A stretch of 64,000 bases of DNA, from the IMG/VR virus record IMGVR_UViG_3300024339_000012, positions 1 through 64,000 of that record. One strand, given 5' to 3'. A model generated the notes under the pieces. That model did not search any database. It was not told the DNA's origin and saw only the letters and a list, made by a program, of their open reading frames with translations. Numbering within the stretch: the stretch's first letter is position 1; each line of letters begins with the position of its first letter. The translations under genes and the position numbers were made by a program. This document shows, one piece after another, positions 21,901 to 50,041 of this stretch. Origin of the DNA: a virus.

Positions 21901-24900
21901 AAGAACAAACTACGCAGCTGCTCACATGTTTACTCATTATAATGAAGCTAATGGAGTTTCTATTATCGGTGGGGAAGGGGGTTTTGACGGTACTACTTTA
22001 ACGGTAGGAGAAGAAACAAGTGCAAGTTCAGCCTTTAATTTATTTAGGGCAATTGCAGATACTAATGGAACTCCAATAACACAGTTTGTTGTGAGAGGTG
22101 ATGGATATACTGCTATTGGGCAGACTACACCTATTGACCAATTAACAGTTAAGTCTGCTAATTCAACAGGTATCACTTTGATTGATGGGAACAGCCGTAA
22201 ATTTATTCTGCGAAAAAGAACTACGGATAACTCAGCGACAATGTATGTTGACAATGGAACTGAGAGGGCATTTATGGTAGTTGGGGAAAGCAATACTTGG
22301 ATGCATCTTAAATCCGATGTTGTCAGCCTAACATCTACACCAGCCGATGCAGGTTCTACAGATGAAATTTTGAGAATTACTTCTGCGGGAGCAATTGTTG
22401 GTTCAAGCGTTACCGAACTCGCTGGAGATATAGGATTAACAGGCAATTATGTTCTGAAGTCTGGTGACAGTATGCAAGGACATCTTGTAATGGATAACCA
22501 AGTTGAAATTAGAAGTAAAAATGCTGCGTTAGGAGAAAGAACCTGGTTCAGATATATTGGGGATGATACCCTTGAATACTGGAATAGTTCTGGGAACATA
22601 AATGTAAAAGGAACGGGAGCATATCTATTTACCGTTGAAAGAGATTTATGGGTAAGCACACCAAATCCATTAATAAAACTTAATGACACATCGGGTTCAG
22701 CGGCAGATGCCCTAATTCAAGTTGAGGATAGCGAATTTAAAATAGGAACTGGTTCTGTTCCCACAATGTTTACCCTTGACTTAACCTCTGATGTAGGGAC
22801 TGCTTATTTCTACGGAAATATTGGGTTGAAGACTACTCCTGAAGATTGGTACAGTGCTGGTTCTGTAATAGAAGCACCCAAGACATCTTTCTTTATGGGG
22901 AATGTTACTGACATACACATGAACAGTAATGTTTACATAGCTGCTGCTGGAGGATGGAAATATAAGTCCTCAAATAAAGCAGCAAATTATTATCAATATT
23001 TAGGAGAACATTTTTGGAGAGTCGCTGGTAGCGGATTAACAGATGCAGCGGTAAACTGGAACTACGCTATGAAACTCCATAACTCCGGAAATCTATCTGT
23101 AGGGAATCAAACAGATAGCGGATACAAAGTTGACATTAGCGGTTCTTTTAGAGCAGGGACTAACACCGAAATGATTATTTCAGGTTCATATCCTTATACA
23201 GCCTCTATTATTAATTCAGCAAATGCTGGAAATGTTTATTTCCAAGCAGGCTCAACATTAGAAACTAAAATAATCTTGGGTGGACCGACCCACGCTGATG
23301 CTGGATTAGGAATTTACACTAACGCTATTGAGCGAATAAATGTGAATCTCGCTGGAGATGTTAACATAACTAATAGGCTTCTTATTAATAACGCATCTGA
23401 TGCCGCTTTAGCCAAATTATTAGTTGGAGATGCAATGCATACAGGTTCAGCAGCAATAGCCCAATTCGCAGGATTTATTCGTGTGATTGACCAAATAGGT
23501 TTTCACGGAACTTCAAGTGGGGAAGCTTGGTTGGGTGTTGATGCGTCAGCCTCAGCTTTTGATATGGATAAAGTATTAATCCATCCTGCCGCAACAGACC
23601 CAACACACTCAGCTTTACTATCACAAGTAACAAGTGCTGTATCAGGAATGGTTACAGGCACAGGAACAGCCTCTTATATACCAGTTTGGCAAGATGCGAA
23701 TACATTAGGTAATAGTGCAATGACCTCAGATGCCACGTACATAAACGTATTAAGCAGAAGATTTAAGGTTTCTACAGGAACAGCTACACTTACTTTAGGA
23801 CAGTGGGACGGTACAAATAATAGAATAGAATCAGCAAATATGCCTCTGTTCTTAACAACCTATACAGGAACAATTAAATTGGGTTTACTCGGAAGTGTAG
23901 GATATGAAATGCAGGCTGGAAGTAACCACGACTTCAAAAGTGGTACAGCTACTTTTGGTGGGACGGTTAGTATAACAAAGGGTACTGCCCTTAGGCTAAT
24001 ATCTGTATCAGCAGGTACACCTGTGAATATGGGATTTTTTGATGGCTCAACAGAGAAATGGAGATTGTATAAAGAAACAAATAATCATCTTTATCTATAC
24101 AATCCAACAACAAGCAAATTTCCTTTCCATATAGATCCCAGCGATAATATGTTCCTTAACGAAGATGCAGGGAATCTTAATGTTGGAATTAATACAGACC
24201 AAGGTTATCAATTACACGTACAGGGAACATCTAATAGCTTGGACGTAATAACAGGAGGCTTAAGGGTTACCGATAATAAAGCTACTGGCTACATTGCAGT
24301 TAGTGATGGTTCTGGAAACCTTATATGGACTGATCCAAGTGCTTATATCTATACTCTACCTGTAGCATCAGCATCAGTATTAGGTGGTGTTAAAATATCA
24401 TATGTTGGTACTCCACAAGAAATACCATTAGAAATTGCTGGTACAGATAAAGCATATATTACATTAACTAAAGCTGGTATTGAAGCTGTACTCACAGGAG
24501 CAATAACAACACACACTCATGCCGGTGGTGTAACAATTAACAATAATGCAGATAATAGATTAATCACAGGTTCTGGCACAGCTGATACTCTAAACGGAGA
24601 ATCTACCTTAACTTATAATGGTTCATCATTATTCCTCTTAGATGCAGCTACTAATGCCACTATCCAAGTTCAAAGTAATGAAGCTTCGGTTAATGGAACA
24701 TCATTCGTTGCAAAACACAGTAGGGCTGGCTCTTACTTACTAAGTGGTGACGCAATAGGCTCTTTTAACATGTATGACAGTCATGGCCATACTGCAGGAA
24801 TGTCTGCATATGCCACTCAGAACCATGCAAGCAGTGATTACGGGTCTGAATTAAGATTTATGACTACTATCATAGATGAGCAAACTGCATCGCTTAGAGC

Positions 24901-35296: not shown

Positions 35297-36142
35297 TTAA
35301 GTTTTAAAATTGATTTCGTATAACTTTCTAATCTTTGGATCGTTCATGGCAATAAATTCTCCAATACGACCGTTGACAAATTTAATAGTATTTGTGAGGT
35401 TTTCTTCCTCGATGCTGATATTCTTTATTTGTAGCCATTCCCTTATATGATCTGACAGGTCTTTCCAGTCATATCGTTCAGTAATCAGATCTCGCATACT
35501 CTCAAAGAATATCTGTTGTAGCAGGGCCTGTATTTGTGTAAAGTGACCATTGCCAAAGAATCCTTTGTCAGCTGACAATGGTGAGGGGTGTACACCTGTA
35601 AGAACAAAGTGTTTAAATGAATCTATTTCACATTCAAGGTTTTTAGCATTGTTTCCCCATAGAACGAATATTACACGTCTGGGATACTTTTCAGAAATTT
35701 CATGAATAACCTTGGTAGTAAAGTACTCCCAGCCTTTGTCTTTATGGCTATTACTTGCACCCTCGACAACGGTAAGCACTCTATTCAAAAGCAGTACTCC
35801 CTGTTCTGCCCATGGCGTAAGATCATTACTCTTAAATAAATCGTGTTTTCCACCATACAGTTGAGCAGAGATCTCTTTAAATATGTTTCCTAATGATTTG
35901 GGTGTCTTAGGTGATTTTGAGCTAAATGACAGCCCATGTGCATCCTTTGAATTTGGATAGGGGTCTTGGCCTATTATGACAACTTTAAGTTTGTCATATG
36001 GACATAGCTTAAAAGCATTGAGTACTTCCTCTTTTTTCGGTAGTACTTCTTTGTATTTACGTTCATAATTTACAAACGCTCTAAGGTCAGCCATCTTTGG
36101 CTCTTTCAGTATCGGGCTAATTATATGATCCCAGTCTTTCAT
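35297..36142 (-). CDS. ung: Uracil-DNA glycosylase, family 1
   Basis: GQDPYP, AHGLSFS, WAEQGVLLLN, VLWG and HPSPLS motifs. Confidence 0.95.
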   Translation of the reverse strand: MKDWDHIISPILKEPKMADLRAFVNYERKYKEVLPKKEEVLNAFKLCPYDKLKVVIIGQDPYPNSKDAHGLSFSSKSPKTPKSLGNIFKEISAQLYGGKHDLFKSNDLTPWAEQGVLLLNRVLTVVEGASNSHKDKGWEYFTTKVIHEISEKYPRRVIFVLWGNNAKNLECEIDSFKHFVLTGVHPSPLSADKGFFGNGHFTQIQALLQQIFFESMRDLITERYDWKDLSDHIREWLQIKNISIEEENLTNTIKFVNGRIGEFIAMNDPKIRKLYEINFKT

Positions 36143-37829: not shown

Positions 37830-38567
37830 TTAGTTATAAAATTCTTCAAATTTAGCAAAAACCTCAACCAAATCATTAGGAATGAATTGATCATCAAACA
37901 TTCCAAGAGGTGATTTAGCCTGTGTGCCATTTCCTTTTTGTGTACGGAAAACATATTTGTTTCCTTGATCAGATTCCTGAACTTCTGCCCAGAATACTGT
38001 TGTGAATAATCCTTCAGGAGTAATTGCCTCTCTGGTAAACTGTCCTGATGGTATTTTAAATTCACGAGTAGGAGTTGTATCATTAGTACTCTTACTTTGA
38101 GTAACATCTTCATGTGACATGATAACAACGATGAAGTCATTACGCAGTTTCTTAATGGTATCAACGAGATCTTTAAACTCTTTTGCAAACTTCTTATATT
38201 TGCTCCAGTTGTCATCCTCAAGCACGTCAAGAACACTTCTCAGCATTGCGTAAGTAAATGTATCAATGATGACATAATCAATCGGACGTGCCTTTATTTG
38301 GTTTTCAGGCATATTGTGGATATCGATCAGAATCTTTTTTATTTCAGGAATGTAATCTTCCGGAATATAATTAGACTTCAATGAATACTTAGAAGTTCCT
38401 TCTTTAACTTCCTTTTTGTAAAGAGTTCTGAAATTCTTTGCAAATCCACGAAAAGGTAGTTCCTTGTCTTCAGGTACAATCCATATGCCCCTTTCGGGAT
38501 CAAGGTTTCTCCCGCTTGTTGTTTTGCCACTACCCGAAGGTGCAACAACTAAAATTGCTCTCGCCAT
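37830..38567 (-). CDS. AAA_24 / Sak4-like ATPase (recombination)
   Basis: Walker A APSGSGKT, VIIDT, MSHE and AKSPLGMF..IPNDL. Confidence 0.8.
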   Translation of the reverse strand: MARAILVVAPSGSGKTTSGRNLDPERGIWIVPEDKELPFRGFAKNFRTLYKKEVKEGTSKYSLKSNYIPEDYIPEIKKILIDIHNMPENQIKARPIDYVIIDTFTYAMLRSVLDVLEDDNWSKYKKFAKEFKDLVDTIKKLRNDFIVVIMSHEDVTQSKSTNDTTPTREFKIPSGQFTREAITPEGLFTTVFWAEVQESDQGNKYVFRTQKGNGTQAKSPLGMFDDQFIPNDLVEVFAKFEEFYN

Positions 38568-38606: not shown

Positions 38607-38942
38607 TCACTTCAATTTCATTTTGTATTTCTCTATTAAGTTTTTGTATGCATTTTTATTCTCAAACTTGCGCCTGATCTTATACCTTAGCTTTTCGTTA
38701 TACACTTTTTTGTGGAAATAGAATTTCCCAAATCCATATATACTTATTTCTATGCCCAACTTAATGAAGTATTTAATCCCATACTTTCCAAAGAATGCAT
38801 CTACATACTGCTTTACCTTTACTGGTGGTAAATTCATATCAGATGCTATTCTCTGGATAGCCTTGAAATTACTTGTAGGTTCTTTAGAATAGTGTGATAT
38901 CCTCTGATTCCTGAAAACTTTCTTTTTGTTCATTTTTCGCAA
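38607..38942 (-). CDS. HU/IHF-like DNA-binding protein
   Basis: Basic protein with IASDMNL..V..EISIYGFGKF motif. Confidence 0.55.
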   Translation of the reverse strand: MRKMNKKKVFRNQRISHYSKEPTSNFKAIQRIASDMNLPPVKVKQYVDAFFGKYGIKYFIKLGIEISIYGFGKFYFHKKVYNEKLRYKIRRKFENKNAYKNLIEKYKMKLK

Positions 38943-40752
38943 TTAATATTGGATCGGTTTCATTGTAATTCAAGAAGTGATGATCACGACCTCTGAAACG
39001 TAATAATACTGGATATTCCTTTCTTGTCTTAACTCCAATTAGCTTAGGTGTTTTAACTTTCTGGACATGAACTTCACTTATAACTTCCTCTTTATTTTCA
39101 TCTTTCAAATGAACACAAAGGATCTCATAAAACTTCTTATTCCATACTGCACCACCAGTAATCTGAAACACTGATGGAGCTGATGGATTCTTTCTATCCT
39201 CACCTTGAGGTGTTGGGGGATGCACTACAATAACTTTAATGATATTGTGAGTAGTACAGAATCTCTGTTCGGCTGATAATTCATTTTCAAGATACTGATC
39301 TAATGAGCCAGTATATCTATGATTTAATGCGTTCCAAGGGTCTGTAACAAAACCTATAATACCACGTTGACGTATCATTCTCCTTGCTACCTGACGTAAT
39401 TCTTCAGGTGTATATCCCTCTTCACGATCAATAAATTCGAAATGCTCAGATATAAACTTCTTAGCAATAGCCATGTCCTTTTCAGTAGCACGCCCATTAA
39501 CATCTAAATCTATGGTGTTACCAATATAAATTTCAATGAATATTATGTAAGCATCTTCTACGGGATAGTTCTCTGGTAGGTAACATCCGAATTTATAACC
39601 ATATTTTATAGCGGCTAATATTAACAGATTAAACATGAATGTACTCTTACCCATATTACCATAACCATTGAATCCTACTAAGTGGCCAGTCTTCCATCGG
39701 AAATGAGCCTCAAGATCTCTTACACCTGTAGGCTTACCCTTTTTCAATCCATAAGTATATTGTTCATTGATTTTATCGCTAACATCATCAATAGTAACTA
39801 CATCATCCAAAGGAAAGCTTTCAGCTCTGTCAAATGCTTCCTGTAATGCTTCAGGACCGATATGCCAAAGCACATCATTACCATCATTGCAGACAATCAT
39901 TTTACCCTTCTTATCTTCATAAGTGTAATTATGGAACTTGATTATCCTGCATTTGTCATAGCCAAAACGTCTGCCTATTTCATTACGCAGTTTAATGCCA
40001 GCGCCATCATTGTCAGTTGCAATGTAAATGATCTCAACCTCTTCAAAATACTGATATGTATGATCAAAGTAGGATAGTGCTAAGTGATTACCTGAGTCAA
40101 CTTTACCAGTCTTTACATAATACTCATTTTCCTCAACAGATATTGACGATCCATTAGGAACACTGCAGGAATGTACTATTCCTATTTCATGGAATGATAG
40201 TGTGTCAATTTCTCCTTCAGTAATAACACAATAGTTCTTGTTATTGCGTACCCAGTCAATACCCCATGGTATAAGTTTACTACCTTTCTCAATCTTAAAA
40301 TTCTTCTGACCATCACGATATTTAATCATGGTTAGCCAGCCATTTTCACGATACGAGAATGCTATACAGGGCTTCTCTACAAATGTATTGTTATGCTTTT
40401 GCCTGATAGATACTGTGGCATTACGAACTTCTCTTGAATCAAGCGTTTGGTTACTGATACCACGCTTATTAAAGTATTCACGTTGCTTGTCAGTAAGGTC
40501 TTGTAAGTGTTTTTTCTCGATTATAGGTTTGTTCTTAACCCAGTCTTTAGGAGTAAGTCCACCAGTATGACCACAATGCTGACAATACCACGTTCCTTTA
40601 ACAACGTTTACAGCAAGTTTCTTCTGACCTTTCTTCTTACGGTGAGGTTCACACTTAGGACATATAACATACGCTTCGTCCTGTTCGTTTACTTTTGCCT
40701 CTACAACTCCTACAATACTAAATTCCTGATAATTATTTGCGAATTCTGTCAT
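38884..40752 (-). CDS. T7 gp4/Twinkle-type primase-helicase
   Basis: Zn finger CPKC..CQHC, TOPRIM TEGEID and ATDND, Walker A GYGNMGKS, DPWN, HVQKVK. Confidence 0.9.
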   Translation of the reverse strand: MTEFANNYQEFSIVGVVEAKVNEQDEAYVICPKCEPHRKKKGQKKLAVNVVKGTWYCQHCGHTGGLTPKDWVKNKPIIEKKHLQDLTDKQREYFNKRGISNQTLDSREVRNATVSIRQKHNNTFVEKPCIAFSYRENGWLTMIKYRDGQKNFKIEKGSKLIPWGIDWVRNNKNYCVITEGEIDTLSFHEIGIVHSCSVPNGSSISVEENEYYVKTGKVDSGNHLALSYFDHTYQYFEEVEIIYIATDNDGAGIKLRNEIGRRFGYDKCRIIKFHNYTYEDKKGKMIVCNDGNDVLWHIGPEALQEAFDRAESFPLDDVVTIDDVSDKINEQYTYGLKKGKPTGVRDLEAHFRWKTGHLVGFNGYGNMGKSTFMFNLLILAAIKYGYKFGCYLPENYPVEDAYIIFIEIYIGNTIDLDVNGRATEKDMAIAKKFISEHFEFIDREEGYTPEELRQVARRMIRQRGIIGFVTDPWNALNHRYTGSLDQYLENELSAEQRFCTTHNIIKVIVVHPPTPQGEDRKNPSAPSVFQITGGAVWNKKFYEILCVHLKDENKEEVISEVHVQKVKTPKLIGVKTRKEYPVLLRFRGRDHHFLNYNETDPILIAKNEQKESFQESEDITLF

Positions 40753-40755
40753 TGG

Positions 40756-41421
40756 TTATTCAAATTTCTTGTCAACATCATCTCTACTGGTAATAGTGTT
40801 GGCACTTTCTTGTTGCTTGTCGCCACCACTTTCTTTTACAATCGCCTCTTCTAAGTATTCCGTCCAGTTTTCGGAAAACCGTTGTGTTTCAAGATTAAGA
40901 AAAGTCGTTATATTCATTATGCTCCTGAAACCGGTACTTGGATGGTTCAGGTATTTAAAGTAAGCCTCTTTCTGATCATTTATGTACTGTGATCCTACTC
41001 TGGCCACCACTTTATTATAGAGTTCTTTTCCAGCTTTTTTACTGCCATGCCATTTCCTGTCACCACGTTTTTGCCAAAAGAATTCATAGTCATCGTCAAG
41101 CTCTATTTTGTGAGCTTTCTGATATCGCTTGCTAACAAAGAATTTATCTTCTCCATCAACAACTTTAACCTCGTACAGTCCTTTACTTTTAAGACTGCTG
41201 AGTATGGGTCTTACTTCATCAACTTTCATTGCAATCCACCTCAAAAGCCTACCTTCAGTAAACTCTTTATTCTGAATGGATAATCTGTGAATTAAGTCAA
41301 TGACAACATATTCATCATTAGACAATTTTAGTCGGTGTCTAACCTTATGATTTATCACGGATTTACCATGTATGCCTCTTGTTGTGGAGAGGAACTTTTC
41401 AAACATATTACCTGTAGTCAT
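40756..41421 (-). CDS. Putative replication initiator (wHTH plus C-terminal domain)
   Basis: N-terminal wHTH-like region; EFFW..GSKKAG..TTFLN..F pattern seen in lambda O/DnaD-like phage initiators; upstream of the primase-helicase. Confidence 0.5.
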   Translation of the reverse strand: MTTGNMFEKFLSTTRGIHGKSVINHKVRHRLKLSNDEYVVIDLIHRLSIQNKEFTEGRLLRWIAMKVDEVRPILSSLKSKGLYEVKVVDGEDKFFVSKRYQKAHKIELDDDYEFFWQKRGDRKWHGSKKAGKELYNKVVARVGSQYINDQKEAYFKYLNHPSTGFRSIMNITTFLNLETQRFSENWTEYLEEAIVKESGGDKQQESANTITSRDDVDKKFE

Positions 41422-41456
41422 TGTTATGAGATTAGGGATAAAAATAATGATATTCG

Positions 41457-42926
41457 TTACTCTGCATTCTGACTAACAATCTTCTTAGCCTCGTAGTACT
41501 GACCAGCTGTGATATTACCTTTCAGATCATAATTCCATTTTCTGAGGTCTCTAAGCTGCCATGGCTTTGCAGGTAGGTTACTAATGAATTCACTTGCCTG
41601 ACCTTTAGTATAAGTTATGTCGTCAGTCCATATTCCTTCATTTTTGAGCCAACCTAATTGTTTTTCAGTTGCAGGTTCGTTGAGTCTTCCAACGTGCCTT
41701 ATACTGCGTTTCTTTGGTAGATTGAACAGATCAAATCTACCTGTCTCTTGAGTTAACCGTTTAATTCTGGCTTCTCTTACTACGCGAATCTTTTCAATGT
41801 AAATATCTCTTTGTTCTTCAGAAATAAGCACACGCTCTTCCATAGGAACATCTTTTTCGATAGTCCAGTGATTTACTAAGCGATGCTGTCCAAAGTTGTC
41901 AACGAAGTCAACGATAGTACAATCAGCACGACCAAATATAGATTTATATAGTTCTGATTTCAAACGAGTACCACGACCTATCATTTGCATATATAATGCA
42001 AGTGATTCTGTTGGCCTTGCCATAAGGATAATACCTACATCACTGTAATCAAATCCTTCAGTCAGGATATTAACATTAGTGAGTACTTTAATGTCGCCGT
42101 TCTTAAACTTACGAACTAAAGCTTTACGTTCATCAGGATCTGTCTTACTGGTTATACATTCGCAACTAATACCATGGTTATGCTTAAATACATCTCGTAC
42201 ATTTTCAGCATGCTTGATATTAGCACAGAATACTATTCCCTGCCTGTCAGCACCATATTGCTTATACTTTGTAACAATAAGGTTATTACGAACAGAGATA
42301 TCTACCTTGGTGGACAGTTCCTTTATGTTAAAGTCTCCCATTGACCTTTTCACTCCTGCAATATCAACATCGGTCTTTACTCTATATGCTTCAAGTGCAC
42401 ATAGCCAGCCCTCGTTGATTCCTTGCTGAATAGTATATTCAAATGATATTTTCTCAAACAGATCAGTAAAGTTCAATCCGTCTAATCTTATTGGAGTAGC
42501 AGTAAAACCATATCTGTGTTTAACTTCAAAATACTCAACTGATTCTTTGTATGTTGGCGCAAGATAATGGTGCACTTCATCAATCAATATACAGTCGAAA
42601 TGTTTTGGTTTTATTTTATCCAGGCGATTGTATATGGTCTGAACAGATGCTATTACTATTTTACGATCTATTTCAAATCGTGGGCCTTTCACAATGCCAA
42701 CTTCCATAGGATACATCTGTGCGAAATCAATGTATGCCTGTTCTATTAGTTCCTCTCTATGACAAAGGAATAGAATCTTTTTGTATGACTGAGATATACC
42801 CACTGAGAGTATTCTCTTGCCTGTACCGGTTGCCATAACAATAAGATGGTTTACTATACCATTACCTATCTCTTTGGCTACAGACTCAAACATCCTATCC
42901 TGATAGGGTCTCCATGTTATATTCAT
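41457..42926 (-). CDS. Superfamily 2 DEAD/DEAH-like helicase
   Basis: RPYQ, ATGTGK, DEVHH, TATP, LTEGFD and QMIGRGTR motifs. Confidence 0.92.
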   Translation of the reverse strand: MNITWRPYQDRMFESVAKEIGNGIVNHLIVMATGTGKRILSVGISQSYKKILFLCHREELIEQAYIDFAQMYPMEVGIVKGPRFEIDRKIVIASVQTIYNRLDKIKPKHFDCILIDEVHHYLAPTYKESVEYFEVKHRYGFTATPIRLDGLNFTDLFEKISFEYTIQQGINEGWLCALEAYRVKTDVDIAGVKRSMGDFNIKELSTKVDISVRNNLIVTKYKQYGADRQGIVFCANIKHAENVRDVFKHNHGISCECITSKTDPDERKALVRKFKNGDIKVLTNVNILTEGFDYSDVGIILMARPTESLALYMQMIGRGTRLKSELYKSIFGRADCTIVDFVDNFGQHRLVNHWTIEKDVPMEERVLISEEQRDIYIEKIRVVREARIKRLTQETGRFDLFNLPKKRSIRHVGRLNEPATEKQLGWLKNEGIWTDDITYTKGQASEFISNLPAKPWQLRDLRKWNYDLKGNITAGQYYEAKKIVSQNAE

Positions 42927-42951
42927 GTTGTTTTGATTAAAATTTGATTGA

Positions 42952-43006
42952 CAAAGGTAGCCTTTTTATTTCACATAACGGTTAATTAAATGAAATAAAA
43001 AGGCTG
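42952..43006 (-). promoter_or_regulatory. Hairpin (terminator of the PRTRC operon) abutting a host-type -7 promoter for the helicase operon
   Basis: agcctttttatttca...tgaaataaaaaggct inverted repeat; TACCTTTG on the - strand at 42952-42959. Confidence 0.5.
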
Positions 43007-43011
43007 AGTAT

Positions 43012-43818
43012 TTATACACTCATGGCTGTTATCGGTTGACTCTTTTCAAGGTCAATGAAATATCCATGATGTTTAATTTGGTGATCTTTGACAAGTTGCC
43101 ATATGATCTTTGCAGCATAAGTTGCTACAATAGAATTAATGAAAGGGTCTTGTCTTTTCAAGGCTTCGAATGTACTACAGCTTGCTTCTTTATCTTCAGA
43201 TTCAGATGCTTTATTCAGGTCATTACTGCTGAACACATCAAATATCCCGCGCAGTCTTTTCTTATAACCTTTGCCGGGCTGTTTAATATCTGCAGTAGTT
43301 CCACAAATTACCTGACCTTTATCGTATGAGTTACCACAATCAATGTGATAGTATATCTGATCAGAATTATGATATCCATGCCTATATGTACTCGGACCTT
43401 TAATGATATGATCCATTTCAAATCTTGCTGACACATTATCAACACAGCACACATTGAAGTTAGACGCCTTATACACTATATGATCAAAATCATCACTGTA
43501 CTTCATGTATCTGTCAATAGCAGACCAGTTAAATCCAAAGTTCCTGTTTATGCGCTCGATGGTTGTACTTGCCTTTTGCTTTCCAATATCTTCCACATAA
43601 TACAGCTGTCTACCAACATTAGAATCAGAAACTATATCACCATCAATGACTGTAACATGTAGTCCTACATGATCAAGTTTTCTAAGCATGATGTTCATTC
43701 TGACAAGTTCAGAAATTAGCCTGGTACCGGTTCCTCCACATCCTACGATTGTAATAGAAATTACTTCGTCAGGATTCGTGATCTTTGCAGGAGCAAAGTG
43801 TGTATAAGTCTTTTTCAT
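43012..43818 (-). CDS. PRTRC system ThiF/E1-family activating enzyme
   Basis: VGCGGTG, IDGDIVSDSNVGRQ, CCVDN..AR, DCGN..GQV and ASCS..EAL..QDPFIN motifs. Confidence 0.9.
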   Translation of the reverse strand: MKKTYTHFAPAKITNPDEVISITIVGCGGTGTRLISELVRMNIMLRKLDHVGLHVTVIDGDIVSDSNVGRQLYYVEDIGKQKASTTIERINRNFGFNWSAIDRYMKYSDDFDHIVYKASNFNVCCVDNVSARFEMDHIIKGPSTYRHGYHNSDQIYYHIDCGNSYDKGQVICGTTADIKQPGKGYKKRLRGIFDVFSSNDLNKASESEDKEASCSTFEALKRQDPFINSIVATYAAKIIWQLVKDHQIKHHGYFIDLEKSQPITAMSV

Positions 43819-44537
43819 ATTAAATCTCCTATCGTTTTATCGTGAGGAATTATTGGCAACAGCCTTATTTCTTTCTTTTTGATATACATATTCCAAGCGT
43901 CTACAAATGTCTTAGGCTTGAATGATTTCTTATACATATCCATTTGCTTATTCATGTGCGTAAATGGACTCTTGAAGAATATCTGTTCCCAATGAATCAG
44001 GAACTCAGCAATAGACTTACATTCATAAAGAGTCATGATATTCTGTGACCCTAAACAAACATTATCTTTGTAATCAACATTCATAAATGGAGTAGGATAC
44101 AGAATAGTATCCATTCCTTCATTTTCCTTTGCGAAATATACATTCAGGTCTCTCTCGCTGGCATGAAATACCATCGCGGGTATCATTATATCATATCTGC
44201 CCTGCTTAATAGTTCCGTATCTATTAACTATTACTGTACGAATACATTTCTCAACGTACCATATGGCATTGTCATAGCTTTTTAGATTAAAGTAAATCAA
44301 GCCTTTTGGAATCTGATTATAAGTAACAGCACTATTCTTTATTAGCACCTCGTCTTTCTGTATGAGAATGGTTAACATGTTCTGAAGTATCTTAGCCTCA
44401 AATGGCCTGAATGAATTATCATTCTCACCTTTCATTTCAGCATAACAAACAGTATTGGCACCATTCTCATAGAAACGCATTTCTGTTTTGAGTGACATTT
44501 TACCAACGGGAATGTCTACGATTTTCTTTTTTTCCAT
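43815..44537 (-). CDS. PRTRC system protein B (prokaryotic E2 family D)
   Basis: IP.GL..IWY..PAMVF..LY.TPFMNV....VCLGS..WE..FF.SPFTH, including the conserved Cys. Confidence 0.8.
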   Translation of the reverse strand: MEKKKIVDIPVGKMSLKTEMRFYENGANTVCYAEMKGENDNSFRPFEAKILQNMLTILIQKDEVLIKNSAVTYNQIPKGLIYFNLKSYDNAIWYVEKCIRTVIVNRYGTIKQGRYDIMIPAMVFHASERDLNVYFAKENEGMDTILYPTPFMNVDYKDNVCLGSQNIMTLYECKSIAEFLIHWEQIFFKSPFTHMNKQMDMYKKSFKPKTFVDAWNMYIKKKEIRLLPIIPHDKTIGDLI

Positions 44538-45588
44538 GTTTCTTGTTTATGAAATTATTAACCATTTTACCATTTACAAATTCATTTGCATCTAAGAACC
44601 TGTTTGCTATGTATGCTATTCCGCCATTCCTCCAAATTGGTTTGCAATCTGTTTTCTTTCCGGGCTTATGCAATACAGACCTCATGAACGGATATACATA
44701 TACATTCTTAGAATTCTTAATACCATGCCAATCATGCATTGTTAATCCACCTTTTGTACATGACCAAACAAATTTAATCCTGTGCTGATTATCTGCAAGT
44801 TTCATATTCTCAGCATTACAAAAATCAAGTATTACATCATCAACATTGTACTTAGATAATTTGAATGAATCTCTATTAAATATGCTGTATAATTTCTTCT
44901 GCAGCTTTCGTACTGTTCCAAACTTCCTTTCTTTCTTAAAGTATGCAGTTATTGATGATTTCCTCATAGTAGCGCCTTTATTGAGTAATTTGATAGCACG
45001 ACTAAGTTCCGGAGTTTCTTCACGACCTTGCATATATTCCTTGAAATAAGGATCATTTGCAGGACAGTATAGTTCAAAGTTTTTAGACATCCATCCAATT
45101 GCTTTGAACATATCGTCAACAAATTCAGGATCTCTTTCCTTTATGCTGTAGATTATATCCAATGGTATTGTCGATGCTAATTCAAGCCATGTAAAACAAT
45201 CTGTTATCATTACAGCAAGTCGTACATCATATGATTTTTCACAGTAATACTGTACAAATTCATATGTATAACTGAACGTATCCAATGGAACGTAAAAGTT
45301 ATGCCTGATCTTTATATCACAAGCATCCCTTGTCATCTTAATTATTCGATGTGATTTGAATCCTTTATTGAAATACTTAATAATTGTATCGAATACATCC
45401 AACCAAGACCTACTACTTGAAAATTCAGTTATAATAGGCAGTTTAGGATTGAGTCTGCAATACAGGTTATAAGCATCCTTAATAAGAACTTGTGGGGCTA
45501 TCTGGAGTAATTCTTTATTATTGCCAACATCAAGCATCCCCGGCTTTGCGTTTGTACCCATTAGGGCCATTATGTTATTTATGCTCAT
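44500..45588 (-). CDS. Uncharacterised protein in the PRTRC protein-F position
   Basis: 362 aa between protein C and protein B; assignment is by synteny only. Confidence 0.45.
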   Translation of the reverse strand: MSINNIMALMGTNAKPGMLDVGNNKELLQIAPQVLIKDAYNLYCRLNPKLPIITEFSSSRSWLDVFDTIIKYFNKGFKSHRIIKMTRDACDIKIRHNFYVPLDTFSYTYEFVQYYCEKSYDVRLAVMITDCFTWLELASTIPLDIIYSIKERDPEFVDDMFKAIGWMSKNFELYCPANDPYFKEYMQGREETPELSRAIKLLNKGATMRKSSITAYFKKERKFGTVRKLQKKLYSIFNRDSFKLSKYNVDDVILDFCNAENMKLADNQHRIKFVWSCTKGGLTMHDWHGIKNSKNVYVYPFMRSVLHKPGKKTDCKPIWRNGGIAYIANRFLDANEFVNGKMVNNFINKKHGKKENRRHSRW

Positions 45589-45785
45589 GGTAGTTCCTGT
45601 TTAAGTTCAGCTATTGGAAGTATTCTCTTTTCCTTCATAACCTGATCAGTAGTGTGTCTGTCGTGGTATTTCAAATGATTGGTCTCTTTAATGATCAATG
45701 ATATTTTTATACCACTTTCCTTAATAGAAAAAGGCAGGTCAATCAACCTGCCTTCTGTCTGTTTAAAATACTCTTCGATTTTCAT
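45585..45785 (-). CDS. Small hypothetical protein inside the PRTRC operon
   Basis: Translationally coupled on both sides (TAATG / ATGA). Confidence 0.55.
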   Translation of the reverse strand: MKIEEYFKQTEGRLIDLPFSIKESGIKISLIIKETNHLKYHDRHTTDQVMKEKRILPIAELKQELP

Positions 45786-45988
45786 TACCCTTTAGGTTTA
45801 AATGATAATGTAAATACGTATTCAGCTTTTCCTGTCTTGTATTCAGGGCCTTTTATGGTCGCTGTTGCAAGTTCCGGAAACTGATTAGCATAGAAGCTCT
45901 GGACTTCTTTCGGAGACATGTTCGGATTTGGATCCGTTAAGTCTTTCTTTTCAAACTTGAAAACTCGAGGTATAGTCTTAGTCGCCAT
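45785..45988 (-). CDS. PRTRC system protein C (prokaryotic ubiquitin-like, Prok_Ub)
   Basis: RVFKF..LTDPNP.MSP.EV..FYA..FPELATATIKGP..Y.F...PKG; ends in Gly. Confidence 0.88.
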   Translation of the reverse strand: MATKTIPRVFKFEKKDLTDPNPNMSPKEVQSFYANQFPELATATIKGPEYKTGKAEYVFTLSFKPKG

Positions 45989-45997
45989 AGTCGTAGT

Positions 45998-46582
45998 TTA
46001 AAAGTCATCTTCAATATCATTATTCATACCAGCAAATGCATCACCTTTTTCTTCAGGTTCAACTGCTTTTGGTTCAACAACCTTTTCAGCTGCTTTTTCA
46101 AGTGGAGCTTTTGGTTTTTCTTTAACCTCTTCTTCAACCTGTTTGAACATATCACCAGTTTCACCTGTTGGAGCAACCTTTTCCTTAACTTCTTCCACTG
46201 CTTTCACATCAGTCTTAGTTTCAGTAGTTTTAGTTTCAGTAGTCTTTGGAACAGGTTTCTTTCGTGGTGTGGTAGTCTTTGTGCCAGTAGCTTTCTTTTG
46301 CTTCTCGTCTGCAACTCTTTTGATTTGCTTATCGAAAAACTCTACATTGTCAGTCATTTCAACAACTTTATTCAATGATGGTTTTAAAGCATCATAGAAG
46401 TTATCTTCTAACTGTTCGGGAGTGCCTGATATTACTAAATTAGGCATGTGAGTATCTTTGTCCTTTGACTTAAAGAATATAGCCATAGTGACAATTCCAT
46501 TCTTACTTGAGAATATGATATTCATATCCAACTTCTCACAATAGTCGGATATGAATTCAAAAAACGTAGGTATATTTTCCAT
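45998..46582 (-). CDS. PRTRC system protein E
   Basis: FF..I..P.LVISGTPEQLEDNF..AL motif followed by a low-complexity K/E/T tail. Confidence 0.8.
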   Translation of the reverse strand: MENIPTFFEFISDYCEKLDMNIIFSSKNGIVTMAIFFKSKDKDTHMPNLVISGTPEQLEDNFYDALKPSLNKVVEMTDNVEFFDKQIKRVADEKQKKATGTKTTTPRKKPVPKTTETKTTETKTDVKAVEEVKEKVAPTGETGDMFKQVEEEVKEKPKAPLEKAAEKVVEPKAVEPEEKGDAFAGMNNDIEDDF

Positions 46583-47610
46583 TACGGTAGTCCTTGTTCG
46601 TTAGTTTCACCAGATTTATCTTTATCCTCTTCTTCAAGAGTATTTGGAGTAGGCTCATCTTCCATGATGTCCTTAGCATTTTCAGCATCTTCTTTTTCAA
46701 GATCAATAACTTCAATTATTTCGCCCAGGCGATATCTGTCAGTAAAGAATTTACCGGTTGCAGCAGATTGAATTATTCTTGCTTCTAATCTGTTACTGGA
46801 AGAGGTTACAGCTGTTATGTGATTAAAGAAATCCCACAACGGTACGAGGTTGTCACCTTTGTCATCATAAGAAAGCATATTTGCAGCAAGTTTGGAACAT
46901 TCGCTTATGTTCAATGGTACTTCAAGAGTACTGTCAATATAAGCACCTTTAACCGCAAGTGATAGTAAGCTACCAAGGATGCTGTTTCTCTCTGTTATAG
47001 CAGGTACGCGCATCATAATAAGCCTATTAATGAATGCACCCTGTTCTTGCCAAAACTCTTTGATATTATCAATACGCTTTTCAATCAATTCAAGAATGTG
47101 ACTGAAATCCATACCGTCTTTACCATAATTTCTGAAGATGTGATTAGCACCCATTATAGTGAAGTTTGAGCATATTGTAACACGAGCACCAACACCAAAG
47201 ATAAAACCCTTTTCATTCTGAGTAATACCAATAACAAGACCAATCTCATCATTAGTAAACTCACCAAGTACTCTTATCGAGCATATCATTTCACGAATGA
47301 TAGTAACGGTTGTGTCATTAACCTCAACAAGATCTTTAGATTCTGGATTGTCCTTGAGGGCTCTTTTGTTCATTCGATCAACTTGCTTCTGTGTTCCTGG
47401 AATTGTTCCTTTTTCGGTTATGAATAAATCACACACCTCGAAAGGTATTTTCCTTGAGTCAAGCATATCAGTTATTTCAGCGATAACATCATAATGCGAC
47501 ATTGGAAATTTCTTTTCATTTTGGTTACGATAGTCCGCAGACTTCTCCAAAGTCTCAAGATCAATTTCCATTACTTTTTGGCCTTCACCAAAGACAATTT
47601 GTTTTTGCAT
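46582..47610 (-). CDS. DUF932-like protein
   Basis: GVGARVTICSNF and LWDFFNHIT motifs; coupled to PRTRC protein E. Confidence 0.55.
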   Translation of the reverse strand: MQKQIVFGEGQKVMEIDLETLEKSADYRNQNEKKFPMSHYDVIAEITDMLDSRKIPFEVCDLFITEKGTIPGTQKQVDRMNKRALKDNPESKDLVEVNDTTVTIIREMICSIRVLGEFTNDEIGLVIGITQNEKGFIFGVGARVTICSNFTIMGANHIFRNYGKDGMDFSHILELIEKRIDNIKEFWQEQGAFINRLIMMRVPAITERNSILGSLLSLAVKGAYIDSTLEVPLNISECSKLAANMLSYDDKGDNLVPLWDFFNHITAVTSSSNRLEARIIQSAATGKFFTDRYRLGEIIEVIDLEKEDAENAKDIMEDEPTPNTLEEEDKDKSGETNEQGLP

Positions 47611-47650
47611 TTTTATAAAGATTAGTTAAAAATATTAAGAAGAAAAATAA

Positions 47651-48016
47651 TCAATTTGGAAGTATTGGGAAGAGGTTTGCCATGTCACTCATGGATACGT
47701 TGGGGGCTGTTTCAACCTTGCGTATGAACGCTCTCACGTTGTCTATAACCTCATTTATGTTCGGGAATGCATGAAGGGTAGCAATGGATCGTATATAGCT
47801 TACAATAGCTTTCTCGTCATCGGTTGTTATAGCCATAAATGTATTGTCTGGCATTCTAAATAGTAGGTGAATGATATCACCACTTGATATTAATAATGAA
47901 TTCACCACACCTGTATCCTTAGAAATGTTATTAAACCACTTCATGGTTTCATCATTGCGTACATTCTTACGAATCCACTCTTCGATATCTTGTGTATTAA
48001 ATGTAGTAAAAAACAT
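47651..48016 (-). CDS. Hypothetical protein
   Basis: 121-aa ORF with an AT-rich leader. Confidence 0.55.
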   Translation of the reverse strand: MFFTTFNTQDIEEWIRKNVRNDETMKWFNNISKDTGVVNSLLISSGDIIHLLFRMPDNTFMAITTDDEKAIVSYIRSIATLHAFPNINEVIDNVRAFIRKVETAPNVSMSDMANLFPILPN

Positions 48017-48098
48017 ATTACAGAATTATTGGGTAAAATTAACATTAATTATTAGATTAAATAATGAAGTCACAGCCTGTGAATCTATATTACAAATA

Positions 48099-48133
48099 AA
48101 ACCCCAAACTGGGTAGATAGCTTGGGGCTTTTT
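48099..48133. terminator. Probable intrinsic terminator
   Basis: aaaccccaaact...agcttggggctttt inverted repeat with A/T tails. Confidence 0.45.
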
Positions 48134-48206
48134 ATGTTTATCTGTCAATCAGATATTCGGGAATCATATGGCTCGAACACTTGCCTTGTTAAAGGACTTT
48201 CAGGAT

Positions 48207-48599
48207 CTAATTGACATTGTAAAAATTTGATAGGTCAGTTTCAAATGAAAGACCGATCGCCTCTCTTTCTTGCTTATAGATATCAGTACCGGTTTTAGTG
48301 GCTGATGGGGTCTCAGAGTAGTAGATCTTTTTAGTTGCCTCAAACTCATTCGATGTGTAATAAACTTTGACATCTGCTTCGAGCATAAACGTGGTAAAGT
48401 ACCAACTGTTCTCATTTTCCTGGGCAGTGAACTTAGAGTCCGTTATAGTTATAATGTCATCAGCTGTAAATTCGCTGTCAACAACATAGACAATTTCATC
48501 TGCCTCGCTCTTCGCATCGGTGATATAGATCACGTCCGCGGCAACTGATAAGCTAAACATTAGCGCAATCAGGAATAAATAAACCGTTTTCATAAGCAT
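48207..48599 (-). CDS. Secreted repeat protein (DUF6150-like)
   Basis: Signal peptide plus repeated VY.VDS...AD units; host-type promoter TATATTTG (- strand) at 48626-48633. Confidence 0.55.
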   Translation of the reverse strand: MLMKTVYLFLIALMFSLSVAADVIYITDAKSEADEIVYVVDSEFTADDIITITDSKFTAQENENSWYFTTFMLEADVKVYYTSNEFEATKKIYYSETPSATKTGTDIYKQEREAIGLSFETDLSNFYNVN

Positions 48600-48658
48600 T
48601 GATTTTAATTAGTAATAAAGTGATACAAATATAATATAATTGAGATATTTACAATAGC

Positions 48659-48976
48659 TTATATCAGACCATTGTAAAGTATAACACTTGGATGACCATG
48701 TTCACAATGACCATCTGGTTCTGTTACGCAGCCCTGAGAACAGCAAGCATCAACTATACTGTCCAAAAGAAGTGAGGGATTATCCATATAAGAACTTAAC
48801 CCTATTGGCTGGAAATAGGACTTGTATCGTTTCTGTTTAGCCTCTTCCATTTTGAGGATCTTACTGGCACGAGATTGAAGTTTCTTTTCGACATTATCAG
48901 GGAGCATTACTACACCCCCTGCTCTTTCAATATCGTCAATCTTTTCTTTTAGCCTATCAATTTCACCTGTTTTCAT
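48659..48976 (-). CDS. Hypothetical protein with C-terminal Cys/His metal-binding motif
   Basis: Likely ATG at 48976; ACCSQGCVTEPDGHCEHGHPS. Confidence 0.55.
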   Translation of the reverse strand: MKTGEIDRLKEKIDDIERAGGVVMLPDNVEKKLQSRASKILKMEEAKQKRYKSYFQPIGLSSYMDNPSLLLDSIVDACCSQGCVTEPDGHCEHGHPSVILYNGLI

Positions 48977-48977
48977 A

Positions 48978-49241
48978 TCAGGTATGTATTGACCAGCCTT
49001 TGCTGTGTTCATGATAAATAATGCCACCATTCATTTTATGCCCTTCTCTTTCAATAGCAAATGACATTGACATATGAGCAAAGTCTGTACCTATTACTAC
49101 ATCATAGCCTTCAGATAAGTATCTGTACAGTCTTGACATTGTTAACCAGAATTCATCAGTTAAGTTGTTCGTATCAGCAAAGTCAATGATTTCCTTGAGT
49201 CTGCCATTGGTGTAATCTGTAATCGTTTTTTCTTTTTCCAT
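48978..49241 (-). CDS. DUF4120-like protein (Bacteroidota mobile elements)
   Basis: DFAHMSMSF..MNGGIIYH..GWSIHT C-terminus. Confidence 0.6.
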   Translation of the reverse strand: MEKEKTITDYTNGRLKEIIDFADTNNLTDEFWLTMSRLYRYLSEGYDVVIGTDFAHMSMSFAIEREGHKMNGGIIYHEHSKGWSIHT

Positions 49242-49585: not shown

Positions 49586-50041
49586 TTAGTGAATTAATCC
49601 TTCATCTGCAAATGAATAATATTTATAATTCTCTGATGAGAGTATTATATGGTCAAGCAACCTAATGCTAAAATAGTTTAATGCTTTCTTAATATTATTA
49701 GTTATTCTTATGTCTTGATCACTGGGTTTCATTCTTCCCGATGGATGGTTATGACATAGTATAACTGCTACACATAATGATTCAATAGCATATTTAGTTA
49801 TTAATCTTTCATCAACGACTGTGCCCATGAGACCTCCTTGACTTATCTTAACCCAACCAATAGTATTGTTAGCACTGTTAAGGAATACGGTAAAGAAACT
49901 CTCATAGATAGCAATATCATCATGATAGAACTGCCTTGCATATTCATCAATATCTCCTGACTTAGTAATTTTTACTTTTTTAATATTTGTTGGTTCTTTA
50001 ACTAATCTGTACTGTGGTGTATTTGATTTATAAGTTTTCAT
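49586..50041 (-). CDS. radC: RadC-like JAB/MPN domain protein
   Basis: ESF..LN.AN..ISQGG..TVVD..LCHNHPSG..PSDQD..LLDHII; metal ligands intact. Confidence 0.9.
   Translation of the reverse strand: MKTYKSNTPQYRLVKEPTNIKKVKITKSGDIDEYARQFYHDDIAIYESFFTVFLNSANNTIGWVKISQGGLMGTVVDERLITKYAIESLCVAVILCHNHPSGRMKPSDQDIRITNNIKKALNYFSIRLLDHIILSSENYKYYSFADEGLIH

What the first reader, a model, noticed from the sequence alone, without database searches (positions are those of the whole stretch)
43012..47610. Phage-encoded PRTRC ubiquitin-like conjugation operon (Ub + E1 + E2)
Seen: a tightly coupled - strand operon of DUF932-like, protein E, Ub-like protein C (ends ..KPKG with a free C-terminal Gly, so no processing is needed), a 66-aa ORF, a 362-aa ORF, E2-like protein B (NV..VCLG Cys) and ThiF/E1 (GxGGxG, SNVGRQ, SCS Cys). 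It lies directly upstream of the helicase/primase genes. Known: PRTRC (ParB-related, ThiF-related cassette) is a functionally uncharacterised system described mainly from plasmids and ICEs, and bacterial E1/E2/Ubl systems such as CBASS Cap2 and Bil act in anti-phage defence. Here the cassette is in a crAss-like phage, with no ParB and no cognate protein A (JAB) in the operon. Inference: the phage runs its own protein-tagging pathway early in infection, modifying host defence or replication proteins or acting as a decoy. Protein E or the 362-aa ORF could be the target or adaptor.
Basis: partly seen in the sequence, partly recalled or inferred. Interest (0 to 1): 0.85.

Follow-up and report, generated by a model that had tools for sequence, protein, structure and literature searches.

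The report
Phage ubiquitin-like tagging cassette, protease-less
A marine phage carries, at the head of its DNA-replication genes, an intact trimmed-down set of ubiquitin-like tagging genes of a catalogued but never-tested type, and related phages share it, so it is probably a working part of phage replication or takeover.

Summary
All seven minus-strand ORFs lie at the stated coordinates. HMMs identify a PRTRC-type E1 (ThiF), an E2 (Prok-E2_D), a ready-made Ubl ending in Gly, and protein E. The 362-aa ORF is a very divergent member of the conserved protein that sits between Ubl and E2 in this cassette (hhalign 95.5%). "DUF932-like" is supported only by an embedding search, not by Pfam.

The host is a seawater phage only distantly like crAss phages (TerL 21-24% identity). 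No JAB or ParB gene lies in the cassette. That is the rule in virus records, where PRTRC_A occurs in 4 of 50.

The cassette is not a misassembly. An independent 9.8-kb contig spans it, and three phages with related terminases carry it.

In 28 of 79 viral loci a phage sliding-clamp gene lies beside it. Protein E tails are enriched in clamp-docking-like or acidic ends. A replication-linked role is therefore my best guess, untested.

This scan met the same cassette before on other DNA: 19 notes in at least 16 genomes.

Verdict: new variant of a known kind.

The parts
43012..43818 (-). E1: PRTRC-type ThiF-family adenylating enzyme, 268 aa
   Evidence: TIGR03736 198.5 bits, above cut-off 144.75. 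PF00899 51.1 bits. GxGGTG, D59, R70-Q71, K82, D127 and S213-C214-S215 are invariant in 14 sequences. Best solved relatives are the NEDD8, UBA6 and ThiF E1s, E about 1e-10.
43815..44537 (-). E2-like protein B, 240 aa
   Evidence: PF14460 Prok-E2_D 71.7 bits. TIGR03737 71.3 bits, below cut-off 131.45. E34, W93, P120, P150, N153, C161 and G163 are invariant and H194 is present in 97% of 70 sequences.
44500..45588 (-). 362-aa ORF: divergent member of the conserved protein between Ubl and E2 (position of PRTRC protein F)
   Evidence: No Pfam, NCBIfam, PHROG or PADLOC hit. Only one remote homologue among 1.84 billion representatives. hhalign against the F-position family of related loci gives 95.5%, E 1.3e-8, over 183 columns; controls give at most 0.3%. 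An ORF of this kind holds the same position in 61 of 79 viral loci.
45585..45785 (-). 66-aa ORF, translationally coupled; function unknown
   Evidence: It overlaps both neighbours. A 57-66 aa ORF follows the Ubl gene in the window and in L043, L080 and L070. Only the L043 and L080 copies are significantly alike.
45785..45988 (-). Ubl (PRTRC protein C), 67 aa, made with a free C-terminal Gly
   Evidence: PF14454 79.3 bits and TIGR03738 68.6 bits, above cut-off 45.95. 72 of 75 relatives end in Gly.
45998..46582 (-). Protein E, 194 aa: N-terminal domain plus a Lys/Glu/Thr/Pro-rich tail with an acidic end finishing in Phe
   Evidence: PF19556 26.4 bits (gathering score 26); TIGR03741 26.8 bits, below 37.95. 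Tail features. A 6-nt in-frame length variant in the tail occurs in an independent sample.
46582..47610 (-). 342-aa ORF in the slot upstream of protein E; possibly DUF932-like
   Evidence: Relatives hold the same slot in L043, L080 and L059. No DUF932 Pfam match. Atlas feature score 0.97 to clusters auto-named DUF932. No hhalign link to true DUF932 or to DnaN.
41457..42926 (-). Context: SF2 helicase directly downstream of E1
   Evidence: ResIII and Helicase_C domains. Strong orthologues downstream of the cassette in L043 and L080, 508 and 500 bits.
38884..40752 (-). Context: primase-helicase
   Evidence: phrog_239, E 2.6e-58. Toprim_2 domain. Orthologues in L043 and L080.
48098..48131 (-). Terminator-like hairpin upstream of the unit
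   Evidence: 13-pair stem followed by a T run. The only terminator-like site found on this strand between it and the E1 stop is a weak 8-pair one inside the E2 gene.
49586..50041 (-). RadC-like JAB gene 2 kb upstream; not shown to belong to the cassette
   Evidence: PF04002 120.6 bits. RadC occurs in only 3 of 50 cassette-bearing virus records.

Best explanation
This is a functional ubiquitin-like conjugation cassette of the PRTRC kind (operon type 6d of Iyer, Burroughs and Aravind 2006). It has no protease and no ParB. It is a long-standing resident of the replication arm of a marine phage lineage.

Inferred steps:
- The 67-aa Ubl is made with its C-terminal Gly already exposed.
- The ThiF-type E1 adenylates that Gly and takes it as a thioester on C214.
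- The Ubl passes to C161 of the E2-like protein.
- It is then attached to target protein(s).
- Protein E and the fast-evolving F-position protein (the 362-aa ORF) supply targeting.

The targets most likely sit at replicating DNA. Three observations point that way: the cassette heads the helicase/primase genes here, it abuts a phage sliding-clamp gene in many other phages, and protein E tails often look like clamp-docking peptides or acidic SSB-like tips.

Shown: gene identities, intact catalytic motifs, conservation across related phages, and contiguity in an independent sample. Inferred: every biochemical step and the target.
For: - HMM identities and intact, invariant active-site residues.
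- Free terminal Gly in 72 of 75 Ubls.
- The order Ubl, 350-415 aa ORF, E2, E1 holds in 61 of 79 viral loci.
- The same cassette occurs in three phages with related terminases: L043 (49% TerL identity, complete with terminal repeats), L080 (47%) and L070 (29%).
- On the E1 tree the window groups with L070 (support 91) and lies in a 15-row set with L043 and L080 (support 83), apart from the 143-row main set.
- One 9,800-nt contig from another seawater sample spans 41000-48387.
- Replication genes flank the cassette.
- A DnaN-like gene lies in 28 of 79 viral loci against 1 of 80 genome loci, confirmed by Pfam and PDB.
- In E-position proteins an x[LM]F motif lies within the last 15 residues in 40 of 124, against 84 of 2471 background ORFs. 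Acidic tails occur in 32 of 124 against 15 of 2471.
- The beta-binding motif consensus QLxLF at C-termini is from PMC4549789, passages read.
Against: - No activity has been shown for any PRTRC system. My searches found no functional study.
- This record has no clamp gene.
- Its own protein E lacks a QxxLF motif. It has only GDMF and GDAF motifs and an acidic ...DDF end.
- The tail enrichment is not corrected for relatedness, and E-position ORFs were picked by position.
- E2 and protein E score below NCBIfam cut-offs.
The Ubl and E2 profiles match no solved structure by sequence.
- RNA-library contigs cover parts of the cassette, but this does not prove transcription.
Confidence: 0.55

Rival explanations
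1. Counter-defence. The phage tags or titrates host immune proteins, or acts as a decoy against host Ubl-based defences such as CBASS Cap2 or Bil.
For: - The cassette is spread over phages, proviruses and Bacteroidota genome loci: 309 of 439 viral stretches and 582 of 600 genome stretches.
- The F-position protein evolves very fast (mean column identity 18%), as in arms races.
- A RadC gene lies 2 kb upstream, and the record's other arm encodes a giant multidomain ORF with DprA-like and exonuclease domains.
- A 2026 preprint reports PRTRC protein B as a mutational hotspot in a Phocaeicola prophage (passages read).
Against: - PADLOC gives no similarity to defence systems beyond the E1 nucleotide-binding fold: Cap2-type E1-E2 at 32 bits, BilD at 14.9 bits, and nothing for E2 or Ubl.
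- The flanking genes are replication genes, not known anti-defence genes.
- Clamp linkage in 28 of 79 viral loci is not predicted by this idea.
Confidence: 0.2
2. Sulfur-carrier or other non-conjugating chemistry. The E1 adenylates the Ubl as ThiF and MoeB do for ThiS and MoaD, for thiolation of a nucleic acid or cofactor.
For: The E1 is of minimal ThiF/MoeB size (268 aa) and matches ThiF and MoeB models weakly. The Ubl ends in a single Gly.
Against: - An E2-like protein with an invariant Cys and Asn is always encoded next to the E1.
- The E1 has no rhodanese domain.
- No sulfurtransferase was seen among the neighbours scanned.
- Best solved E1 relatives are protein-conjugating E1s.
Confidence: 0.07
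3. Partition or maintenance accessory, as the name "ParB/ThiF partitioning cassette" used in some papers implies.
For: The name PRTRC links it to ParB. ParB_N is present in 21 of 50 cassette-bearing virus records. A 2026 paper calls it a partitioning cassette, without data.
Against: - No ParB in this record, nor in the records of L043 and L070 (both complete) or L080.
- No tyrosine integrase was found, so nothing suggests a maintained prophage or plasmid state; the record is estimated 65% complete.
Confidence: 0.05
4. Assembly chimera or inert cargo recently picked up from a conjugative element.
For: The nearest genome-borne E1 relatives are in Bacteroidota genomes, 78 of the 80 best loci by record title.
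Against: - An independent 9.8-kb contig bridges both borders, and a second run bridges the helicase-E1 junction.
- At least 12 DNA runs hold half or more of the sampled words.
- Related phages carry the cassette in the same place.
- GC content is flat across the region, 0.345-0.371.
- All catalytic residues are intact.
Confidence: 0.03

Closest known systems
PRTRC system (ParB-Related, ThiF-Related Cassette; NCBIfam TIGR03735-03742), equal to operon type 6d of Iyer, Burroughs and Aravind 2006 (PMC1779556, passages read)
   Same: It has a small Ubl with a conserved C-terminal Gly. Its E2-like protein has a conserved Cys and a conserved His downstream in place of the classical His. It has a ThiF-type E1. 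A rapidly diverging protein lies between Ubl and E2. Protein E lies upstream. The gene order E-C-F-B-(A)-ThiF matches Ralstonia phage Dina.
   Different: No JAB protein A and no ParB. The E2 and E proteins score below the NCBIfam cut-offs. The F-position protein is not recognised by TIGR03742 and shows no profile link to canonical protein F. It sits in a phage replication module, not on a plasmid or conjugative element.
PRTRC cassettes of temperate proteobacterial phages: Ralstonia phage Dina (NC_055026) and Burkholderia gladioli phages AB2 and BgVeeders33
   Same: They are phage-borne with the same core genes. The E1 is 31-34% identical.
   Different: Dina keeps protein A, and AB2 is described with protein A and ParB. 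Their hosts are Proteobacteria, and the Burkholderia phages are described as prophages. Here the cassette is reduced and lies among replication genes of a large marine phage in which no integrase was found.
Bil (BilABCD) and type II CBASS Cap2/Cap3: the experimentally studied bacterial E1/E2/Ubl pathways
   Same: The predicted chemistry is the same: E1 adenylation, then Cys thioesters on E1 and E2, then conjugation.
   Different: Only weak E1 similarity (32 and 14.9 bits), and no match for E2 or Ubl. Those systems are host defences with a JAB partner. This one is virus-encoded and has no JAB.
Eukaryotic PCNA ubiquitylation and SUMOylation (analogy only, recalled rather than taken from a call)
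   Same: A Ubl system associated with a sliding clamp. A clamp gene lies beside the cassette in 28 of 79 viral loci, and protein E tails resemble clamp-binding motifs.
   Different: There is no evidence that the clamp is the substrate. This window has no clamp gene. There is no homology beyond the general E1, E2 and Ubl folds.

Membership tests
PRTRC system (NCBIfam TIGR03735-03742) | ThiF-family E1 matching TIGR03736 above its cut-off | tested here: met
   198.5 bits against 144.75
PRTRC system (NCBIfam TIGR03735-03742) | Protein C (Ubl) matching TIGR03738 above its cut-off | tested here: met
   68.6 bits against 45.95; PF14454 79.3 bits
PRTRC system (NCBIfam TIGR03735-03742) | Protein B (E2-like) matching TIGR03737 above its cut-off | tested here: inconclusive
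   71.3 bits, below 131.45. Pfam Prok-E2_D at 71.7 bits exceeds its gathering score of 25, and the family's invariant Cys, Asn and Pro are present.
PRTRC system (NCBIfam TIGR03735-03742) | Protein E matching TIGR03741 or PF19556 | tested here: inconclusive
   TIGR03741 26.8 bits, below 37.95. PF19556 26.4 bits against a gathering score of 26.
PRTRC system (NCBIfam TIGR03735-03742) | Protein A (JAB peptidase, TIGR03735) | tested here: not met
   No match at E<=1 in the 89-kb record. The only Prok-JAB signal is the RadC gene, at 12.2 bits.
PRTRC system (NCBIfam TIGR03735-03742) | Protein F (TIGR03742) between C and B | tested here: inconclusive
   No NCBIfam hit at E<=0.01. A 362-aa ORF holds the position and matches the F-position family of related loci by hhalign at 95.5%. 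That family shows no link to canonical F sequences.
PRTRC system (NCBIfam TIGR03735-03742) | Associated ParB-related protein | tested here: not met
   PF02195 gave no match at E<=1 in the record, which is estimated 65% complete.
Iyer et al. 2006 operon type 6d | Small Ubl with a conserved C-terminal Gly; E2-like protein with a conserved Cys and a conserved downstream His; E1-like protein | tested here: met
   definition from PMC1779556 passages.
Iyer et al. 2006 operon type 6d | JAB protein with a JAB-N domain | tested here: not met
Iyer et al. 2006 operon type 6d | Beta-grasp fold of the Ubl and UBC fold of the E2 | not testable with these tools
Profiles find no solved relative by sequence.
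Bil / CBASS Cap2 defence systems | Matches to PADLOC models for E1, E2, Ubl and JAB | tested here: not met
   Only weak E1 matches (32 bits to E1-E2 models, 14.9 bits to BilD). None for E2 or Ubl.
crAss-like phages (Crassvirales) | Clear similarity of TerL, portal and major head protein to crAss-like phages | tested here: inconclusive
   The TerL query matches 24 phage records, all below 60% identity. The 15 listed lie at 20.7-24.1% and are mostly uncultured gut/faecal 'cr' phages, plus Azobacteroides phage ProJPt-Bp1 and a Bohxovirus. The major head protein has no tblastn match. The giant ORFs look like tail-fibre and DprA/exonuclease proteins, not an RNA polymerase.

The most novel reading that the evidence does not exclude
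The protease-less PRTRC cassette is a virus-encoded, replisome-directed ubiquitin-like system. Protein E docks on the bacterial or phage sliding clamp, or on the SSB interaction network, through its C-terminal peptide. The E1/E2 pair then attaches the Ubl to the clamp or to clamp-bound proteins. This would be a prokaryotic-virus counterpart of PCNA ubiquitylation or SUMOylation, used to capture or rewire the host replication fork. In this phage lineage a DUF932-like protein would take the place that the clamp gene holds elsewhere.
Probability: 0.2. Interest if true: 0.85.

Novelty: new variant of a known kind. Interest (0 to 1): 0.6.

Why it matters
PRTRC, or type 6d, was catalogued in 2006. 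In the papers I could search it has never been tested. A 2026 paper says outright that its function has not been studied.

This work shows that a reduced form without JAB or ParB is a stable, inherited part of phage replication modules. The lineage carrying it includes this abundant seawater phage, seen in at least 14 DNA runs. The form is often joined to a phage sliding-clamp gene.

That turns an orphan cassette into a concrete, testable idea: viruses of bacteria may use ubiquitin-like tagging at the replication fork. If true, it would extend the known uses of bacterial E1/E2/Ubl chemistry from host defence to viral replication or takeover.

Tried and rejected
- Megablast of the cassette against 50,697 phage records: no match.
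- Single-protein E1 scan of viral contigs: nothing. An alignment was needed.
- PHROGs: no family for any cassette gene other than weak E1 hits.
- Atlas search on the 362-aa ORF: uninformative, model pLDDT 0.33.
- phmmer and hmmsearch of the 362-aa ORF against the F-position ORFs: no hit, best E 0.055. Only profile-profile comparison linked them.
- Canonical protein F (Dina, L065, L045, L073) against the Bacteroidota-type F family or the 362-aa ORF: no link, at most 0.5%. That small alignment was itself heterogeneous.
- F family: no Pfam domain (three single-member chance hits) and no meaningful PDB match.
- The 342-aa family against DnaN, true DUF932 and three other upstream-slot families by hhalign: at most 0.4%.
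- Sigma-70 promoter scan: 48 sites against 38.4 +/- 5.4 in shuffles, so not informative.
- Window TerL in the records or genomes of L019, L020, L035, L115 and L128: nothing. The three viral records are fragments (20-41% complete); completeness of the two genomes is not given.
- RadC as the missing deconjugase: rejected as a general partner. It occurs in 3 of 50 virus records and within 10 kb in 5 of 80 genome loci. It cannot be excluded for this lineage, because the three positive records include L043 and L070.
- SSB (PF00436), DnaN (PF00712), ParB (PF02195) and tyrosine integrase (PF00589) in the own record: none found. The record is estimated 65% complete.
- Pfam terminase models hit 16 of 50 virus records. 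They miss the three records that have a window-like TerL, so they undercount phages.

Choices that limit the counts:
- Searches used 50 of the 79 viral loci, which is the cap per call. I picked mostly the longer records and left out 29.
- The E1 tree left out E1 ORFs outside 230-300 aa (for example L023, L050 and L073) and 3 duplicates. It used a quick search and a midpoint root.
- E-position and F-position ORFs were chosen by position with my own ORF caller.

Supplementary files of papers were not asked for. Supplements of the phage Dina and B. gladioli papers might hold more on their cassettes.

Full report
**What is there.** They overlap by 1-38 nt or are at most 9 nt apart.
- The E1 (43012-43818) matches the PRTRC ThiF model at 198.5 bits (cut-off 144.75).
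- The 67-aa protein C matches TIGR03738 (68.6 bits, cut-off 45.95) and Pfam Prok_Ub (79.3 bits).
- The E2-like protein matches Pfam Prok-E2_D (71.7 bits) but falls below the NCBIfam cut-off for protein B (71.3 against 131.45).
- Protein E is borderline: PF19556 at 26.4 bits against 26, and TIGR03741 at 26.8 bits against 37.95.
- The 66-aa, 362-aa and 342-aa ORFs match nothing in Pfam, NCBIfam, PHROGs or PADLOC.

**Active sites.** In 14 E1 sequences the glycine-rich loop, D59, R70-Q71, K82, D127 and S213-C214-S215 are invariant. In 70 E2 sequences E34, W93, P120, P150, N153, C161 and G163 are invariant, and H194 is present in 97%. That fits Iyer et al.'s description of an E2 with a conserved His downstream of the Cys. 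The Ubl ends in Gly, as do 72 of 75 relatives; 60 of them end GTKG. No processing protease is therefore needed. The best solved relatives of the E1 are the NEDD8, UBA6 and ThiF E1s, at E about 1e-10. Profiles of the Ubl and the E2 find no solved structure by sequence.

**The element.**
- The window is the first 64 kb of an 89,236-base IMG/VR virus record, classed linear and estimated 65% complete.
- It has TerL, portal, major head and tail-fibre genes.
- Its TerL matches 24 of 50,697 phage records. The 15 listed are 20.7-24.1% identical and are mostly uncultured 'cr' phages from faeces, plus Azobacteroides phage ProJPt-Bp1 and a Bohxovirus. The major head protein matches none. "crAss-like" is therefore at best a distant relationship.
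- The stretch 41000-49000 is held by at least 14 seawater or marine DNA runs.
- The nearest genome-borne E1 relatives are Bacteroidota, 78 of the best 80 loci by record title. That list is ranked by likeness to the query.
- No tyrosine integrase, ParB, DnaN or SSB was found in the record.

**Not a misassembly.** In another seawater run, one 9,800-nt contig covers 41000-48387. It differs by three substitutions, a 6-nt in-frame deletion in the protein E tail and one inserted base near 48306. It bridges both borders of the cassette. A second run bridges the helicase-E1 junction. GC content is flat across the region.

**Relatives.**
- Among the 79 viral loci kept, E2 is found in 73 and Ubl in 74.
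- The order Ubl, 350-415 aa ORF, E2, E1 holds in 61 of the 79.
- L043 and L080 also share the window's SF2 helicase (508 and 500 bits), the 221-aa ORF, the primase-helicase and the 342-aa ORF. Their records have TerL at 49% and 47% identity. L043's record is a complete 80.5-kb genome with terminal repeats.
- L070, a complete 78-kb genome, has TerL at 29% identity and the same core cassette.
- On the E1 tree the window joins four metagenomic proteins (support 100), then L070 (91). It lies in a 15-row set with L043 and L080 (83), apart from the main 143-row set. This was a quick search with a midpoint root, and the support is modest.
- The picture is one of long residence in a phage lineage.

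**The unnamed ORFs.**
- 362-aa ORF: it has one remote homologue among 1.84 billion representatives (22% identity, E 8e-6). Profile-profile comparison links it to the F-position family of related loci at 95.5% probability, E 1.3e-8, over 183 columns (94.4%). Controls against E2, E1 and a reversed alignment give at most 0.3%.
- The F-position family: its mean column identity is only 18%. It has no Pfam domain or solved relative. [quoted passage not shown] In Ralstonia phage Dina the same slot is annotated PRTRC protein F. I could not link the two by sequence.
- 66-aa ORF: a 57-66 aa ORF follows the Ubl gene in the window, L043, L080 and L070. Only the L043 and L080 copies are significantly alike.
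- 342-aa ORF: it has relatives in the same slot in L043, L080 and L059. Pfam DUF932 does not match, and hhalign to true DUF932 proteins fails. Only the Atlas feature search points to DUF932-named clusters (0.97).

**JAB, ParB and RadC.** Among 50 of the 79 virus records (the cap per call, mostly the longer ones):

| Family | Records with it |
|---|---|
| PRTRC_A | 4 of 50 |
| Prok-JAB above cut-off | the same 4 of 50 |
| RadC | 3 of 50 (L010, L043, L070) |
| ParB_N | 21 of 50, none of L043, L070, L080 |

The reduced form is thus the common viral form. RadC tracks this phage lineage rather than the cassette.

**Link to replication.**
- In the window the cassette heads a run of replication genes: SF2 helicase, primase-helicase, a Sak4-like ATPase and a UDG-family gene.
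- I scanned the ORF just upstream of protein E in 41 loci. It is a full sliding clamp in 13-14, DUF932 in 6, a helicase in 3 and ParB in 1. One clamp was checked against PDB entry 8dt6, E 2e-41.
- A clamp HMM finds a DnaN-like gene in 28 of 79 viral loci and in 1 of 80 genome loci.
- The C-termini of 124 non-redundant E-position proteins carry an x[LM]F motif within the last 15 residues in 40 cases, against 84 of 2471 other ORFs of the same loci. Acidic tails occur in 32 against 15. This is not corrected for relatedness.
- Beta-clamp partners bind through a C-terminal QLxLF-type motif (PMC4549789, passages read).
- The window's own protein E has no such motif. It has GDMF and GDAF motifs and an acidic end finishing in Phe. 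That recalls the SSB tip, which I cite from memory, not from a call.

**Literature.**
- The system is operon type 6d of Iyer, Burroughs and Aravind 2006 (passages read).
- A full-text search for "PRTRC" gave 45 papers, 30 of them listed. Judged from titles and abstracts these are genome descriptions, transcriptome studies or false matches to other terms, and none reports a functional test.
- A 2026 BMC Genomics paper notes the cassette in B. gladioli phage AB2 and says its function has not been studied (passages read).
- A 2026 preprint reports PRTRC protein B as a mutational hotspot in a Phocaeicola prophage (passages read).
- Searches for crAss-like plus ThiF, for DUF932, for the Pfam names, and for phage plus ThiF plus anti-defense found nothing relevant.

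**Earlier notes of this scan.** After my own clamp and tail analyses, a word search showed 19 earlier notes in at least 16 genomes describing the same cassette, several of them beside a clamp. They agree with my reading but are not independent evidence.

**Mechanism and verdict.** The best reading is a working, protease-less Ubl conjugation cassette that belongs to the phage's replication programme. The chemistry is inferred from intact motifs, and the target is unknown. Counter-defence remains a live rival. Sulfur transfer, partition and misassembly are unlikely.

**Limits.** The folds, the complexes and the contexts of the closest E1 relatives (46-57% identity, on short contigs) were therefore not examined.

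Noticed in passing
window 186-8984 (+): A 2932-aa ORF carries DprA-like (residues 1318-1450) and exonuclease-like (1676-1869) domains. It looks like a giant multidomain 'polyvalent' protein of the kind described for phages and conjugative elements.
   Followed up: no
window 12956-25390 (+): A 4144-aa ORF has tail-fibre-like stretches (phrog_18345 and phrog_9942). It is one of the longest ORFs in the record and shows no sign of a crAss-type virion RNA polymerase.
   Followed up: no
window 46225 (protein E tail): An independent seawater sample (run X4) has a 6-nt in-frame deletion in the repetitive Thr/Glu/Lys tail of protein E. This is natural length variation in the linker.
   Followed up: no
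L157:11279-11749 and L123:10989-11480 (Bacteroidota genome loci): A RadC-like JAB gene lies within 230-490 nt downstream of the E1 gene in these two loci, and within 10 kb in 5 of 80 genome loci. This is an occasional, not regular, neighbour.
   Followed up: partly
L080:5300-5869 and L010:5113-6501: Both give weak DnaN-like matches: E 1e-6 for a 189-aa ORF and E 5e-9 for a 462-aa ORF (PF02768 at 20.1 bits). Both lie upstream of the cassette and may be degenerate or divergent clamps.
   Followed up: no
L045, L065, L073, L074 (viral loci): The four records that keep protein A have long Ubl genes of 115-130 aa. One has ParB directly upstream of protein E. They are the canonical form, distinct from the short-Ubl reduced form.
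   Followed up: partly
window 35297-36142 and 37830-38567 (-): A UDG-superfamily gene and a Sak4-like AAA_24 ATPase lie further down the same replication arm.
   Followed up: no
window 41000-49000 in RNA libraries X15 and X16: Metatranscriptome contigs from 2025 match pieces of the helicase, E1, Ubl/protein E and 342-aa genes at 100% identity. This hints at expression in the sea, but DNA carry-over is not excluded.
   Followed up: partly
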